Shown here in pieces: positions 4,093 to 59,794 of a DNA stretch of 64,000 nt. This DNA is from Podarcis vaucheri (lineage: Eukaryota). Numbering within the stretch: position 1 is the first letter of the stretch; each line of letters begins with the position of its first letter. Under the pieces are notes generated by a model. That model saw only the letters and a list, made by a program, of their open reading frames with translations. It had not been told where the DNA came from and did no database searches. Made by a program: the position numbers and the translations under genes. The stretch is taken from NCBI GenBank assembly GCA_965113315.1, contig OZ220364.1. The stretch is one strand, 5' to 3'.

Positions 4093-7000
4093 CTTGATCT
4101 CAGAAATCGGATTGTGTGTTTTAAGAGGAAGAAATGTGATGAGAGATGGGAGTCAGTTTCTGCAACACGGACATGAGCACACTCCTTTCTGTGTCCACAA
4201 TGGGACTTTTCACAAGTGGAAAACTACATGCTGGCAGCCACCTCATGCTCATACAATGTAGGTTTTGTACACATTTTGATTCTGCAGGCTGCTTTTTTAT
4301 ATTTCTTATTTAATATTTTCTAGAATTGAACTTGATTATATCCAAGCACCTGTCTTACAATTGGCAATTCTTACTAGCTTTAATGGAAGAGGGGTAAATA
4401 TATGCATTCTCACAGAAGCATTAATGTGCTTCCAAATGTGATTCATGGAAGACTTGTGAAATGACTGCTGTACATCTTCATTTGTGGCATCCCCCTAACA
4501 TCAAACCATCAGCATCACAGAGCATACCTTACTTACTGCAGTAAGTTACCTGTTCAAATGAGACTAACGCCACTTCTGGCCACATTCTACTGGGCTCTGT
4601 GGATGACAGCACAGACCTAATACACATCAGATGTGAACTGAACCTTCTGTAATTCACAAGAATAGATTCAGCTGATGAAAATTTCAGAAAATCAATGAGC
4701 TAGTCAAGGATGGCCATTCTTGCGCTTGTGACAAGTCAGCCTGACAGCAGGTGATCTATATGCAGGTGTGGATCAGTCCAGAAACTGACAAACAGCCTCT
4801 AATTCTTGTCAACAAAAGTTTTAACACAACATGGATATCTTGATTGCTGTTTGCAATTGTCAGTTAACAAACTTGATCACTTTTTAACATAACAGATTGG
4901 TTGAGACTTTTTCCTGCCTTTGCGATTTGAGGTAAGTTTTTGCAATCTGGGATAAAAAAGAGGATGTCATCAAGCTTTGAAAAATACATAAAACTGTTAT
5001 TAACTGGCGCTCACTGGAGCTCCAGCAGTGAAAATCAATCAGATGTGTGATCTCTCCAACACATCAATGTCACCTTAAGTACTTGGAATTGGAAGGTTAG
5101 GAACATTCTATTCCTTTCTGAGAGTTGTTTTACAACTACGTAAAAGAATAGAAAAAAAACCTGAAAGATCACATTTGTGAGAATTTTATCTAAGCTTCAA
5201 ATAAAATGAAAAGTGGCCAGAAAAGGGGGGGGGGTGAAAGAGAGCTCAGATTCCCACAGAAGCTCCCCTACAGAGTCTCTCTACTATGATACTTTCACAT
5301 ACAACCAGACACCTGTTGAGTATATTACAAATGTTGGGGACAGTCTAGCAGGATGTTCTTTGCAAACTGCAGTTTAAAGATATGGGGCTGTTCAAGAGCA
5401 TGGATTGTATATATAGTTGGTTTAGAAAGGTGCCAGGCAAACAATCTAGGGCCTTTTAGTCAGGGTTAGTGTTTTCATGTGTTACTATGTTCTGTATTTT
5501 TATATGGTAAACTGCCCTGTGAATGTCACATGAAGGGTGGTATAGAGATTTTATAAATAAAAATAAGTAGACTATAATGTGGCAATTACAATGTAAATTA
5601 ACTTCATTTTAAAAATGAAGTTCTATTGCCAAAAGTTCCAACTCACAGTTTATTGAGCAACATTTAATTCTGCCACTGTCCAAGGTGCTGTGTAGAACAT
5701 AGGGCAGGGACCCTGCTGTCTGATGACAACCCTCATTAAATTAAGAAGAGAGCAAGCAGGAGTTGGCCATGGAAGGGAATGCAGGAGAGGAGAATGACTA
5801 GTGCTAAGATGGTTTGGCAGAGAGTTGGGTCTCACCTTTATATACAACTAAGCAGGTTTGCTGCTATTCACATTCTGGCTTGCCTTATAGGAAGATCCAT
5901 GGCTATATGACATCCCCTCTTGGTCATCCCTTATCCCCTTAGCTACCTCATCAAAACAGACTCCGCAAACCTACAAATTTATTGAATGGGACAAGTCTCT
6001 CTTATCTATCCAACAGACTTTTTAAACATGAACATTTAATAAATCAACACAAGGTTTTTTTTAAAAAAAATAAATGCAAGGGTAAAAAAGAGTCATTGCA
6101 GTGTTAAGAGTCTTATAGAAAGTTTAATAGACCATGTTTATAAAATGGAAGAGAAGAAAAGTGCCAGAAATACCACTTGTGTATTTTCATTAAACCTGAC
6201 ATAATTACTAACCTGTTAACATTGATAATGAGCAAGCTGTCTTCGCAGCCCATTTCTATGCAAGACAAAAGGATGAAGCCTAAAACCCAATTGCTTACAA
6301 TTGTTAGATATGTGACTATAACCAGATTTAATGCCTCCTATTTATCGCTGCGCAGAAAGCTATCCAGGGCAGACAGTGCCTAGGCGGCCATTTTACTGTG
6401 GCATGTTGAACAACTGTTTACCAGTTAAACTTTTCACGGGAAGGTTATTGCTTGAAAGTGACAAGAGATCAAAACTGCACCGAGCAAGGGTGGCCTACAC
6501 AGTGCTCTTCAGATGCTGCTGGGCACAAACTCCCATAATCTCTGACCATTGGTCAGGCTGGCTGGGGCTGGTCAAACAACATCTGAAGGGGACCATGTTG
6601 ACTACCTCTGGAATGCAAAAAAACCAATTATTGCTGCTGCTTGGCCCTAAATTGGTAGTTCTGAGATAGCCAGCAGCTCATGTCCTCTTCAATCCAAAGT
6701 GCTGTCTTTTAGCGTTTTAAAATAGTGCAATACCTCACAAGTTGTGGCATACTCCGGGATTCAAATTAGACATAAGGCACTCCTGCCCACAAAAGTTTTA
6801 TTCTGCCACAAACACAGTTGTCAGCTACTGATTCTGTTGCTGCAAAACACATTTACCAACAGAGCATCAAATAGGATAGTATGTTTAACGCATTGTTGCA
6901 TCTCACTATCTTTAATTCAAGAAAACAACCACCCTGGAGGAAGGGAGTTTTAACCCTCTCGCCTAGTGCAGTTTTTCTGAATGAGAGGCTACAGCATAAA

Positions 7001-54267: not shown

Positions 54268-54411
<144 letters not shown>

Positions 54412-56229
54412 CTATTCAATATTTGAAATAACCAATTTCAGAATTATAATACAGCAGGGATAACCATTTGTTCCTTAGTAAGCAGGTCTAAACATTATAT
54501 ACTTCACTATTGCTTGAAATAATATTTTTGTTCTACATTTTTCAAAACTGATAAGATTCTATCTAATAGAATAAGTGCTCACTTTTTAAATGGAACCCTG
54601 TTTTATTACTATTTAAGGTAAGGGTATACAGAATGTAAAGAGCCATTTTCCCTCACATATTTAGCTCTCTTTTCCCATACCCCTCTTCCCACATGTAGGA
54701 ATACCAAATAACAGTTATCTTTTTGGATTAAGTTCTGCTGCATTGGGATACTATAAACTTTCAAGTTACAAATGAATTTTATTTAGATAAAATGGTAGAG
54801 GAAACATTTCCTGCAATTTATATTGCAGGAACAAACCCCAGTAGAATCTGTAGATCATTTTGTTAAAAATTAGATTTTTATTTTTTTAAAGGCTGAATAA
54901 ATCTGGCAAGGCAGCCCAAGGTAAGCATCTGTGCAAGCAAGATAATTCCAGGATTACATTTACATGCAAAACTGTGCTTCACCCTAAAATTTTAGTTTTT
55001 AGTTGTTGTTTTAAATCAACATATAACAAACTAATGTAATAGCTTCAAAATCTGAACTTTTGTACTTTTGTTTCCTGCTCTCTTTCCGTGCTCCCACAGT
55101 GCCACTGTAACATGGTTTACCATTATGTCCTTGTGCCATTACACGGCTTTTTCTGCCCTATCCCAAATAATTTTAAGCAGCCATCGGATACCAACCCACC
55201 ATTCTTGAAATCTCATAAGTGGTTCTAGCAAGGCAGTACAGCTGCAATTCCTAAATCACTATCTTTGAATTCTGCTCATACTAGCTCAAGTCCTCAGATG
55301 GAGATCAGGCAGCCCTAAAGCCACAGAACTATTAGTGAAAAAATGATAATAATGAGAGCAGTCCAGTTGTCATACCGGGCACAAACGTAATAGCACTTAA
55401 ACCTCATTAGGGGGCTGATTGGAAGCACCAATTCAAGGCTGTGGATTACTAACAGCGGCGGCTTTAATGATTGTGACCCCAGAACTGTCAGGTAATGCCA
55501 AAGTGACAGAGCCTGAAATTACAACATTTGCCTCATCCATCTGTACATTTCTAACCAATTAAGAAGCAGAAGGAAATAGACCATGTGTATGACCTGCTTT
55601 TGCCCGAAACCCCCTCCTGCAACAAGGGACAATACAGTTCAGAAAAGATGTCTGTAAAGTGTGATAGGGAACAGAGGATACAGTGAACAAGACAGCTTAT
55701 TCTAGCTAGTCAGCCAGTACAAAGTATTCTAAACCATCTATGAACTGAATGGGGGGGGGGGTATTTGTGAGGGAACCTGCCAATGTATATAGCTTTTGAG
55801 AACCAAGTTTGGAGTCATGGGAGAGAGCTAGGCTAAAGACCCAAATGGCATGCGATTACCTCTGTGTCCCTCTGTCTTTCTCTCTGTCTCTCTCTCAGCC
55901 ATCCTACTTATAATAGAACTGAAATATCAAGCCACCATTCTGATTCCTTATAACCTGTAGGGAGCCCACTGTTGTGATTTTGAATAGCAACCAGGAATCT
56001 TGACAGGAACATCTGTGGATATTCTGTCCAAGTCACAGGTTCTGACACCAATATGCAGCCTGTCAGCCAGAAGCTCCTTGAACAGAGTCTCAAAAAATGA
56101 AGCCATTCCTCCCTCCCACAATATAGCACCCTTTGAACAAGATTCCCTGTGATACTGGCTTTCTTAACACCAAGGACCAGATCCAACAGGCGGCCATTTC
56201 CTTTTTCTGCAAAGCCTTTTTTAATAAAG

Positions 56230-56867
56230 CCCCTTGCGCCAAATTTGTGGTGCGCAAGGCTGTGGTAGGCTGGGCACTCTATCCCCTGGGGTAAGGAAGC
56301 CTATAACTTTTGATTTGCTGACCAGCATGCGCTCAAAGTTGAGGAGCATTTGCTGGTTCAAATATGAAGCACGGCGTTTTTCAGCCGCCTTTTCTTTATC
56401 CTTTTTTGGCGGCCCGAGGGTAGGTGAGGTGGTATTGGAGTTCACCCGCGGCAGAGAGTCAAGGGGACTGCTTTTGCAGGACGTAACTCTATCCCCTTCG
56501 GAGGTGGTCCTGTTTATCTGGAATTCGAAGACAGACCAGTTAGGCAGGGGTGTCACTCTTAGGGTGCCTGCCACTGGAAATAAGGGTCCTTCGCCAGTTA
56601 AGGATACCTCCAGGTATTTGGATCACGGGGGGAGGGTCCATTCCTTTTTCATGAGGATGGTGCCCCGTTGGCTAGGCATCAATTTGCTAAGGTGATGCGG
56701 TAAGCGATTGCAGCTTGTGGTTTGAAAGCAGCAGGTTACGCCCCTCATTCTTCCGCAATGGTGCTGCCACTACAGCAGCTCATTGGGGACTGTCTGTAGA
56801 AAGAATTAAGAACATGCACCGTTGGAAGTCCAATGCATTTTGTGGATATGTGCATAGACATCATTGA
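56230..56867 (+). pseudogene. Tyrosine recombinase of the DIRS/Ngaro element, with frameshifts and an internal stop
   Basis: AAFSLSFFGGPRVGE (Arg), SKTDQLGRG (Lys), PFLFHEDGAPLARHQF, YAPHS/RNGAATTAA (HxxR across a 1-nt frameshift), RWKSNAFCGYV (Trp, Tyr), TGA at 56865-56867. Confidence 0.88.
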
Positions 56868-56900
56868 TCACCCATACTTATATTTGCTTGTCTTCTCTTA

Positions 56901-57448
56901 GGTGTGGCTGCTGTTCGCATTGTGGGCCACAGCATTGTCTACTGGGCCGGTATCAGAGCAAGGGAGTCTGGATTGGACTCAGTCTTGGCTTTCCTCAACA
57001 CGCGCAAGTGTCTTGGCTGTCCAGGCATGGAATGCTGTGGGCCGAATTGCTTCCCCTTGTTCGGAAGCATGTGAGGTTGGAGGGGCCCCCTACAGCTATC
57101 GTGCTGCAGTTAGGGGGAAATGATCTGCTTTCCACGGACTGTTGTTCTTTACGTTTTACAGTTCAAAAGGACCTGGCTGAATTGGCAGAGTTTTTGCTGG
57201 GTGTGAAAGTTTTTTGGTCCCAGTTGCTGCAGAGACGCACCTGGCGTGGCAGTCGCTGTCCGGCCGCCACTGATGGAGCCAGAAAGCATGTTAATAAGGT
57301 GGCAATGAAAGCAGTCATTGCTCATGGTGGTTCTGCGATTGCACACCCAGATATCACCTTCAAGGCGGCCGTCCTTTTCAGGGACAATGGTGTGCATCTT
57401 TCCCCGTTGGGAAATGACACATGGTTAAATTCTGTTGTGTGGGTTTGA
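56901..57448 (+). pseudogene. SGNH/GDSL hydrolase (esterase) ORF of the element, one frameshift near 56970
   Basis: Block I VRIVGHSIVYWA (frame starting 56901), block II HGMLW, block III VLQLGGNDL, block V FRDNGVHLS (ORF 56864..57448 frame). Confidence 0.85.
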
Positions 57449-58754
57449 AGGTGGGGCTGCAGTTGTGAGTGGTTGGCGGCGAGCTTGAGTGCTCGGTGGC
57501 GGTTAGGCATTGGTTTATGGTTTGGTTGGTGGAGGGGCAGTGGTTGAGTGCCTGCCCTTGGTAGGTTGAGTGCCTGCCCCTCTAATGCTGCTGCTGCAAG
57601 GGATTCCGTTAAAGGAACTGGGGGCTAACTATTGCTTGTCCACTCTGTCAAGGGGGCTCGGGCCATAGCAATGAGCTCCTGGTTGCATTTGGGGTGAGGG
57701 CAGGTTCCCTGCTCCGCGTAACCCCCAAGTGTATTCCCCTATTCTGACTTTCGCATCGTGCGAATGTCAGTCTGTCCCCCATGGTGGGGGCAGATAGTCG
57801 CAACCAATGCCTAAACAACCACTCACAAATTTGTATTTCAATAAAGTTGTGGCCAAAATTATGCCAAAAATCTTAAACAAAAAATTCTGTATGATGTGTG
57901 AGTTATTGGGGTGGCCCTGGGGACCTCAACACGCGACTGGTTAAATTGTCTCTCTTTTGCTTGGATTAGCCATTGCCTGCTGCAGCACACATTTAATAAT
58001 GTCAGCCCCTCTCTTCACATTGGGAGGAAATTGATTTAATTAAGTATCTCCATACGCTTAATTCATCTTATAATGACAAAATCATCATGAACAACAGTTA
58101 TGGAAAACAGACATTTTCTGAATTGCCCGGGAAGACAAGTGAAGTAACATTCTAGTCAATACAAATCAAAGGCTTGCAGGATATGTTTTGTGATACTAGC
58201 ATGCAGGACTTTCTCCCGATCCTGCAAATGAGCAGCAAAACATTTTTCATGTGGAACAGCACAACCGAAGCTCATTTGCTGATAAAAGTAAGTCTTAAAA
58301 ATAGCTCCCAACATGCTAATATCCATCAAGAAGTAATTATGTATGTTTAAATTGCTAAAAATCCACACATATCCCTCAATACAGTATTAAAACATTATAG
58401 CTAGCCACTTAAAAAATACTGCCCCATAATTCCATACATGGCCAATAAGAGGAAATTTGGATGGCTTTGAACAAGCTTTGTTAGAAGATAGGAATGGCCA
58501 GAACTAGGGGTTCTTACAATCAACAACTGATACACGCAAAATAGTTCTCCTCCCTATTATATGAATCAGGGTTATCCAAATTTCCTAATTTACTATGTTC
58601 AGTATATAAATGTTCTAGATTATTTGTTATTCCCATAGTTATGGAAAGAGAATTTGGAGACTGCCTCTAAGGACATCACCTCTCAACTGTTCTTAAGTTC
58701 CTCTATTCCAAAGCAATAAGGAAATGAACAGAAGTTCTCTCCTATGCTCCAAAC

Positions 58755-58890
58755 CAGGCATAGCTAAACTTGGCCCTCCAGATGTTTTGGGACTACAATT
58801 CCCATCATCCCTGACCACTGGTCCTGTTAGCTAGGGATGATGGGAGCTGTAGTCCCAAAACATCTGGAGGGCCAAGTTTGGCCATGCCTG
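58755..58890. mobile_element. Palindromic hAT-type MITE, young
   Basis: CAGGCAT...ATGCCTG ends; arms of ~58 bp nearly fully complementary; 8-bp TSD CTCCAAAC / CTCTAAAC. Confidence 0.9.
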
Positions 58891-59455: not shown

Positions 59456-59794
59456 TAAAGGTAAAGGGTAAAGGGACCCCTGACCATTAACTCCAGTCGC
59501 AGACATCTCTGGGGTTGCGGCACTCATCTCGCTCTGTAGGCCAAGGGAGCCAGCATTTGTCCGCGGACAGCTTCCAGGTCTTGTGCCCAGCATGTCTAAG
59601 CTGCTTCTGGCAAACCAGAACAGCGCACGGAAACGCTGTTTACCTTCCCACCGGAAGGTATTTATCTACCTATTTATCTACTTGCACTGGTGTGCTTTCG
59701 AACTGCTAGGTTGGCAGGAGCAGGGACCGAGCAACAGGAGCTCACCCCATTGCGGGGATTCGAAGCACCAACCTTCTGATTGGCAAGCCCTAGG
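59456..59794 (-). mobile_element. Sauria SINE, 5'-truncated
   Basis: taaaggtaaagggtaaagggacccct tail in reverse orientation; body is the reverse complement of 32966-33309. Confidence 0.9.

What the first reader, a model, noticed from the sequence alone, without database searches (positions are those of the whole stretch)
56230..57937. YR retrotransposon relic carrying a tyrosine recombinase and an SGNH hydrolase, antisense in an STK32A intron
Seen: all YR catalytic positions (R, K, HxxR, W, Y) can be reassembled across frameshifts, followed directly by all four SGNH blocks (GHS, G, GGND, DxxxH-like RDNGVH). Known: Ngaro-group DIRS elements in some vertebrates carry an extra SGNH hydrolase ORF of unresolved function, and esterase domains also occur in some LINE ORF1 proteins. 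Inference: a lacertid family with this architecture. The 5' end stops abruptly inside YR while the 3' end and polyA signal remain, which does not fit recombinase integration of a full circle and suggests later deletion or another insertion route.
Basis: partly seen in the sequence, partly recalled or inferred. Interest (0 to 1): 0.7.

Follow-up and report, generated by a model that had tools for sequence, protein, structure and literature searches.

The report
Lizard retrotransposon relic, spliced esterase exon
This is an ordinary broken copy of a lizard jumping gene that likely lost its front half by deletion, but its intact relatives show that the element's puzzling esterase is likely made by splicing it onto the first half of the Gag protein, a join that another family of copies appears to have frozen into DNA.

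Summary
Observation confirmed. Window 56179-57936 (+) is the decayed 3' third (recombinase tail, SGNH esterase, B repeat) of a Ngaro retrotransposon, antisense in an STK32-family intron (likely STK32A). Relatives in this genome have gag-RT-YR-SGNH and A1...B1-A2-B2 repeats. The 3' end is a precise recombinase junction with no poly(A) tail. Four species labels share the same truncated copy; a fifth lacks it and has at least 317 extra bases there, so deletion is likelier than another insertion route. The interest lies in the family. SGNH (dN/dS about 0.17, catalytic residues kept) often has no start codon. It sits behind a conserved splice acceptor, in phase with a donor in gag. 15 of 18 database gene models use that join. 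A 7.2-kb non-autonomous subfamily carries the spliced junction in DNA (8 of 8 copies read). The predicted product (helical hairpin, Arg-rich motif, esterase) mirrors LINE ZfL2-1 ORF1p. Solo A-B end units vastly outnumber coding copies. SGNH in Ngaro, solo AB units and truncated copies are in print; I did not find the splice in print. This scan already noted the splice on other DNA. No RNA reads were tested.

The parts
56179..57936 (+). Whole Ngaro relic: YR 3' part, SGNH exon and one B repeat; A repeat, gag and RT/RNase H are missing
   Evidence: 87% identity over 1783 bp to bases 4172-5932 of a 5.9-kb genomic copy; no A repeat anywhere in the window; 94% to the C42 copy
56179..56867 (+). Broken tyrosine recombinase remnant with R, K, HxxR, W and Y; 3 frame-changing indel sites and 1 stop
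   Evidence: intact copy hits phage-integrase Pfam families
56875..56901 (+). Predicted 3' splice site: branch-like motif, pyrimidine tract and AG at 56900-56901
   Evidence: same layout and phase in 10 of 10 elements scored
56902..57468 (+). SGNH esterase exon, frameshifted in this copy, with block III and V decay variants
57495..57934 (+). B split direct repeat, about 440 bp
   Evidence: matches B1/B2 of full elements and the B half of solo units at 90-98%
57840..57845 (+). AATAAA inside B, not followed by a poly(A) tail
   Evidence: sequence
57929..57936 (+). Right recombination arm ACACGC plus core bases: the precise element end
   Evidence: the outgroup contig joins the host flank at 57936
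54316..54371 (-). Host kinase (STK32A-type) coding exon 2; exon 1 lies about 7.3 kb beyond the window end, so the relic is antisense in this intron

Best explanation
This is a dead copy of a Ngaro tyrosine-recombinase retrotransposon that was likely integrated by its own recombinase and likely lost its 5' two-thirds, with neighbouring host DNA, in a deletion; in active relatives the SGNH esterase is likely made as a spliced fusion to the first ~225 residues of Gag. Shown: the family anatomy; a palindromic B-A junction (ACACGC-AAA-GCGTGT) at which intact ends fall without target duplication; the same truncated allele in four species labels; purifying selection on SGNH; a conserved in-phase acceptor and donor; and the junction preserved in DNA in a non-autonomous subfamily. 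Inferred: a circular copy is integrated at the palindrome into A-rich host sites. One RNA serves as genome and as Gag/RT/YR message, while an alternative splice skips the Gag core, RT and YR. This gives a ~413-aa protein (helical hairpin, disordered linker, Arg-rich motif, esterase). By analogy with LINE ZfL2-1 ORF1p, it would co-assemble with Gag, bind RNA through the basic motif, and bind or deacylate membrane lipids through the esterase. That last step is untested.
For: Ends: 49 of 49 solo units end at the two arms, with no junction-adjacent repeat except one in a microsatellite. The 11 both-ended elements printed start at the left arm and have no flanking repeat of 10 bp or more. Deletion: contigs of four species labels bridge the same 5' junction, and three of them the 3' junction. 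In label F the left flank stops at 56178 and runs on into 32 and 172 other letters, and the right flank is preceded by 317 letters that fit nowhere on 55000-58740, so B is absent. Breakpoints differ among the family's copies: gag, YR, SGNH, and one 3' truncation. Selection: SGNH dN/dS median 0.167 in 32 of 36 pairs with finite dS; YR 0.102, RT 0.051. Fold: AlphaFold pLDDT 88, Foldseek top hits GDSL/SGNH hydrolases; the only PDB sequence hit of the profile is ZfL2-1 ORF1p esterase 4C1B, E=0.025. Splice: 5 of 9 elements have no Met before block I. The acceptor ranks 1-36 among 261-411 AGs in 10 of 10 elements. The best conserved GT column is a phase-1 site in gag, GGT in 8 of 8, also present in a distant family. 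This donor was predicted before I saw that 15 of 18 longer database models join exactly there, from several RefSeq accession series and two Podarcis species, with Zootoca models joining at the matching place. In 8 of 8 non-autonomous copies read, the SGNH exon is preceded by the 8 bases that end the gag exon; that 8-mer occurs once in each of two autonomous elements, exactly at the donor. The fusion model gives helices 34-68, a disordered linker and the esterase.
Against: No RNA reads were laid; both read-laying runs went to DNA. RefSeq XP models are automated and their transcript support was not seen; 2 of 18 longer models join from YR instead, and 16 shorter models exist. The donor is weak in most families (score 0.5-3.6 on an approximate, recalled matrix; 8.1 in one). 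A second invariant GGT at gag residue 48 shows that such a column can have other causes. The captured 8-mer is absent from 3 of 5 autonomous elements checked (7 of 8 bases in two of them). The label-F contigs were seen only as coordinates, so the extra bases could be an F-specific insertion, and a deletion during insertion cannot be told from a later one. Two truncated copies carry 61-bp and 21-bp flanking repeats, which could mean one-ended insertion. Label E's flanks were not covered. Esterase activity and lipid binding are analogy only.
Confidence: 0.72

Rival explanations
1. The copy was truncated at insertion: the recombinase joined only the 3' end and host repair joined a broken 5' end, deleting or duplicating target DNA.
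For: One 5'-truncated copy has a 61-bp flanking repeat starting at the junction core, and one 3'-truncated copy has a 21-bp repeat. No full-length allele was seen at the window's locus in the 4 carrier runs. DIRS-1 has linear single-stranded cDNA intermediates (PMC7192593, title and passages).
Against: The window copy has no junction-adjacent flanking repeat. Four other truncated relics examined show none of 10 bp or more. The same repeats would arise if a break in a new heterozygous insertion were patched from the empty allele (inference).
Confidence: 0.22
2. A LINE enzyme retroposed a polyadenylated Ngaro RNA (target-primed), giving the 5' truncation.
For: 5' truncation with the poly(A) signal retained; 3 of 8 internal-sequence copies of this family are 5'-truncated.
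Against: The copy runs about 90 bases past AATAAA to the exact recombination arm, with no tail and no target duplication. A 3'-truncated copy exists.
Confidence: 0.03
3. SGNH is expressed as its own ORF or as a YR read-through or YR-splice product, and the splice signals are incidental.
For: 4 of 9 elements have a Met just before block I. Some gene models start in YR or are SGNH-only. PMC9210276 (section 8) describes it as an additional overlapping ORF in Xenopus.
Against: That Met is absent in 5 of 9 elements and lies inside the first strand of the fold. YR ends in a stop in all 9. The donor, acceptor, gene models and the DNA-frozen junction all agree on one join.
Confidence: 0.12
4. Side question: solo A-B units are only relics of host recombination between A1 and A2, as proposed for Cafeteria, and are not integrated directly as mini-circles.
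For: A solo is exactly the A2-spacer-B2 cassette, which either route gives. PMC8547959 (passages) proposes recombination.
Against: At 99% or more identity to the reference, solos outnumber coding copies 16:2 in the window's family but 1:7 in a sister family with repeats of the same size (Fisher p=4e-4; copies are not independent and identity is only a proxy for age). B1-B2 recombination should leave many A-ORFs-B dead ends, yet only 3 were found in this family against roughly a thousand-fold excess read depth on B (not a copy number).
Confidence: 0.4

Closest known systems
Ngaro-like YR retrotransposons with SGNH ORF, Xenopus DIRS-53_XT / DIRS-54_XT (PMC9210276; passages and section 8 read)
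   Same: gag, RT/RH, YR, then SGNH; A1 ... B1-A2-B2 split direct repeats; A of about 220-236 bp; function of SGNH unproven
   Different: Squamate host; B of 420-440 bp and a 170-bp spacer between A2 and B2; here SGNH behaves as a spliced exon joined to Gag, which the passages read do not describe
Cafeteria burkhardae Ngaro elements (PMC8547959; passages read)
   Same: Solo AB repeats and 5'-deleted copies occur
   Different: No hydrolase mentioned (0 hits for the word); solos are ascribed to recombination, while here solo:full ratios differ strongly between families of like age
ZfL2-1 LINE ORF1p esterase, PDB 4C1B (PMC3905857; passages read)
   Same: SGNH fold with Ser-Asp-His triad and Gly/Asn oxyanion hole; layout of helical domain, Arg-rich motif and esterase; only PDB sequence hit of the profile, Foldseek rank 6
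   Different: Belongs to a non-LTR element and is a single ORF; 22% identity; activity and lipid binding were shown there, not here; the Ngaro helical part is a predicted hairpin whose oligomerisation is untested

Membership tests
Ngaro superfamily (order DIRS) | gag-like ORF, RT/RNase H and tyrosine recombinase in overlapping ORFs | tested here: met
   Family copies: (RVT_1 and phage-integrase hits; RNase H read from motifs only, no Pfam hit). The window copy itself keeps only YR.
Ngaro superfamily (order DIRS) | Split direct repeats A1-ORFs-B1-A2-B2 | tested here: met
   7 of the 13 stretches show it, with A1/A2 98.6-100% and B1/B2 99.5-100% alike; the window copy keeps one B only
Ngaro superfamily (order DIRS) | No methyltransferase domain; SGNH ORF after YR in the vertebrate type | tested here: met
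   No methyltransferase family among Pfam hits of the four ORFs; SGNH fold
Ngaro superfamily (order DIRS) | Integration at a short junction motif without target-site duplication | tested here: met
   49 of 49 solos and 11 both-ended elements; exceptions are two truncated copies with 61- and 21-bp repeats
Ngaro superfamily (order DIRS) | RT falls in the Ngaro clade rather than PAT, which also has split repeats | not tested
   No named Ngaro or PAT reference sequences came from the tools, so no tree was built
DIRS1-like elements | Inverted terminal repeats plus internal complementary region; methyltransferase domain | tested here: not met
   Terminal repeats are direct and split; no methyltransferase hit
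SGNH/GDSL hydrolases | Blocks I Ser, II Gly, III Asn, V Asp-x-x-His and the flavodoxin-like fold | tested here: met
   Motif tally over 34 proteins; model and Foldseek; Pfam Lipase_GDSL in 13 of 15 at E<=0.1, the one listed score below the gathering cut-off. The window copy has Asn for the block V Asp.
SGNH/GDSL hydrolases | Ester hydrolysis | not testable with these tools
   Needs an enzyme assay
LINE-mobilised processed retrocopy | Poly(A) tail after the signal and target-site duplication | tested here: not met

The most novel reading that the evidence does not exclude
Lizard Ngaro elements build a LINE-ORF1p-like protein out of an LTR-like Gag by alternative splicing: the Gag N-terminal hairpin and Arg-rich motif joined to an esterase. 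The spliced RNA is packaged and reverse-transcribed, as shown by a successful non-autonomous subfamily that froze the junction in DNA, and the recombinase also integrates sub-genomic A-B mini-circles by the thousand.
Probability: 0.55. Interest if true: 0.68.

Novelty: new variant of a known kind. Interest (0 to 1): 0.52.

Why it matters
The SGNH ORF of vertebrate Ngaro elements has no proven function in the papers read (PMC9210276, PMC6681497). Knowing its likely real protein form makes the question testable: the thing to express is a ~413-aa Gag-N-esterase fusion already present as RefSeq models. Its layout matches the LINE ZfL2-1 ORF1p, pointing to a shared lipid- or membrane-linked step in two unrelated retrotransposon orders. 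The relic in this window is itself ordinary and matters only as a shared insertion marker.

Tried and rejected
Target duplication around the window copy: only scattered 8-9-mers far from the junctions. A repeat or gag/RT elsewhere in the window: none. Empty site in label E: flanks not covered at 85% likeness, no conclusion. Single-sequence PDB search with the SGNH domain: 0 hits. A whole processed (fully spliced) copy in this genome: none among 102 matches to one fusion protein, only the 8-base junction capture. Selection on SGNH inside the non-autonomous subfamily: 2 synonymous and 4 non-synonymous variant codons in 9 copies, too few to say. Gag-N fusion outside lacertids: N-terminal parts of models from geckos, a newt, a frog and a mussel gave no BLAST match to lacertid Gag; 26 of 69 mid-sized hits have a basic stretch before block I; inconclusive. 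One apparently 3'-cut locus (L060) ends at withheld N and was dropped. The dimer prediction for the helical hairpin did not run, so it gives no verdict. Goodwin and Poulter 2004 is not held; Poulter and Butler 2015, Repbase and Dfam were not seen and may already note the splice or solo units. PMC9004415 passages had nothing on this. No supplements were read.

Full report
1. The observation. The plus strand of 56179-57936 holds the 3' part of a tyrosine recombinase, an SGNH hydrolase and a 440-bp repeat. Aligned to an intact copy from the same genome, all catalytic YR positions and the four SGNH blocks are in place, with three frame-changing indel sites and one stop in YR and two frameshifts in SGNH. 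Pfam on the raw pieces is weak (SGNH E=0.088, YR pieces none); intact relatives hit phage-integrase and RVT_1 families. A model of an intact SGNH domain (pLDDT 88) matches GDSL/SGNH hydrolases in Foldseek. A 15-sequence profile finds only the ZfL2-1 ORF1p esterase in the PDB (E=0.025). The window's GGND and RDNGVH are decay variants of GEND and DGVH (33 of 34 relatives each). Host kinase exons flank the relic on the minus strand; one hits only STK32A in the PDB. The paralogue name is also supported by recalled motifs.

2. The family. Searches of the own genome (at most 40 candidates scored each, so lower bounds) gave 8 copies of the window's own family with internal sequence. One is A1-gag-RT-YR-SGNH-B1-A2-B2, three are A-ORFs-B, three are 5'-truncated (breaks in gag, YR and SGNH), and one is 3'-truncated. 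Several sister families at about 66-71% identity have young copies with open frames. A is about 220 bp; a 170-bp spacer separates A2 from B2. The B-A junction is a palindrome, ACACGC-AAA-GCGTGT. Of 50 distinct loci examined, 49 were solo A-spacer-B units. All 49 end at the two arms, with AAA left of the left arm in 37 and AA right of the right arm in 48, and no junction-adjacent repeat except in one microsatellite. This is the pattern expected of recombinase integration of a circle (inference, in line with PMC7192593 passages on junction trinucleotides).

3. The truncation. The window's 3' end is that same arm (57929-57934), about 90 bases past AATAAA, with no tail and no target duplication. 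Contigs from four species labels (X1-X4) bridge the same 5' junction. X2-X4 also bridge the 3' one by 26-27 letters, under the tool's 31-letter mark. So insertion and truncation predate their split. In label F (X13, X14) the left flank ends at 56178 and continues into 32 and 172 letters that fit nowhere on the stretch, and a low-depth contig carries 317 unrelated letters before 57936. F therefore likely lacks the element and holds at least 317 bases that the window's lineage lacks. Deletion of the 5' part with adjacent host DNA is the simplest reading. An F-specific insertion or loss during insertion is not excluded; label E was uninformative. Two other truncated copies have 61- and 21-bp flanking repeats next to their intact end, and four further relics have none of 10 bp or more. 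One copy starts at an internal 10-bp copy of the element's own first bases. Truncation is thus heterogeneous and occurs at either end, which argues against a LINE-type route.

4. SGNH is under selection and looks like a spliced exon. Across 9 elements, pairwise dN/dS (Nei-Gojobori) has median 0.167 (32 of 36 pairs finite; four unsaturated pairs 0.05-0.22), against 0.102 for YR and 0.051 for RT. Five of the 9 have no Met before block I. All have a branch-like motif, a pyrimidine tract and YAG in the same phase, ranking 1-36 among 261-411 AG sites in 10 of 10 elements on my ad hoc score. Scanning aligned elements for conserved GT, the best column was a phase-1 site in gag about 665 nt after the ATG (recalled approximate matrix; mostly weak scores). 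It is a GGT Gly in 8 of 8 and is kept in a distant family. Only afterwards I searched for longer proteins. Of 18 hits, 15 join Gag to SGNH at that Gly, 1 (Zootoca) at the matching place, and 2 join from YR; 16 shorter models also exist. These are automated RefSeq models; I did not see their transcript support.

5. The junction frozen in DNA. Searching the genome with one fusion model gave 102 matches, 32 of them with a 194-codon open frame behind a run of TAA stops. These belong to a 7.2-kb non-autonomous subfamily: A1, decayed RT-YR-SGNH relics, an A-rich tract, an intact SGNH exon and B1-A2-B2 or B, with copies 95-99% alike. In 8 of 8 copies read in full, homology to the autonomous element begins exactly at the acceptor. 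It is preceded by TTCTTCAG, the end of the gag exon, not by the intron's pyrimidine tract. That 8-mer occurs once in each of two autonomous elements (395 and 381 AG sites), at the donor, and not in three others. The likeliest origin is a template switch off a spliced RNA during reverse transcription (inference). If it is instead a newly selected acceptor, that too implies the exon is spliced.

6. What the product would do. The fusion folds as helices 34-45 and 50-68, a long low-confidence linker with an Arg-rich stretch, and the esterase. ZfL2-1 ORF1p has a coiled coil, an Arg-rich motif and an active esterase that binds negatively charged phospholipids (PMC3905857 passages). I commit to the same role by analogy: the fusion shares Gag's N-terminal module, joins the particle, and uses the esterase to engage membranes or lipid esters. 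This step is not shown.

7. Solo units. At 99% or more identity to the reference, solos outnumber coding copies 16:2 in the window's family and 1:7 in a sister family. This favours direct integration of A-B mini-circles over host recombination alone, at about 60:40.

8. Prior knowledge. SGNH in amphibian Ngaro with no proven function: PMC9210276 (passages, section 8) and PMC6681497 (passages). Solo AB and 5'-deleted Ngaros: PMC8547959 (passages). Searches for the splice or for lizard Ngaro-SGNH (listings only unless named above) found no description. Goodwin and Poulter 2004 is not held, Repbase and Dfam were not available, and no supplements were read. After my splice calls I looked up the scan's notes: it had already proposed the spliced SGNH exon in another lizard genome and in shellfish, and a long flanking duplication. 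These are unchecked AI notes and not support. What those short notes do not mention are the DNA-frozen junction, the cross-species empty allele and the solo ratios.

9. Verdict. The window copy is an ordinary fixed relic and the proposed puzzle about its insertion mostly dissolves. The family-level splice is a well-supported, RNA-untested new variant of a known kind. Interest 0.52.

Noticed in passing
L155-L168 (e.g. G000:C1:2730000-2739999): Young 7.2-kb non-autonomous Ngaro subfamily (32 of 102 matches) with decayed RT-YR-SGNH relics, a duplicated ~210-bp unit with A-rich tails, and an intact captured SGNH exon starting at the spliced junction
   Followed up: yes
L031/L032 (G000:C28:~78.71 Mb) and L094 (G000:C31:~43.26 Mb): Truncated copies with perfect 61-bp and 21-bp flanking direct repeats abutting the intact end; one is 5'-truncated, the other 3'-truncated
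   Followed up: partly
L079 (G000:C31:~51.62 Mb): Copy whose 5' end falls at an internal copy of the element's first 10 bases inside SGNH: a cryptic recombination site or a microhomology deletion
   Followed up: partly
L033 1153-4250 (G000:C17:~121.43 Mb): Seven 100%-identical tandem copies of 442 bp inside gag of the only complete copy of the window's family; may be an assembly artefact
   Followed up: no
L070-L077, just upstream of gag: Pyrimidine tract and tandem AG acceptors directly before the gag ATG in most families, suggesting a 5'-leader intron; A repeat carries CCAAT- and TATA-like boxes
   Followed up: no
L157/L163 and G000:C10:84456448-84457619: Extra tandem A-B units after B2, i.e. 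head-to-tail end cassettes
   Followed up: no
L082 + L035 (G000:C28:60.24-60.256 Mb): Three Ngaro elements of different families lie within 16 kb, although integration sites otherwise look dispersed
   Followed up: no
window 58766-58890: Short palindromic MITE-like repeat with extremely high read depth
   Followed up: no
window 59460-59790: SINE-like repeat also seen beside other loci; resembles a squamate SINE (name recalled, not tested)
   Followed up: no
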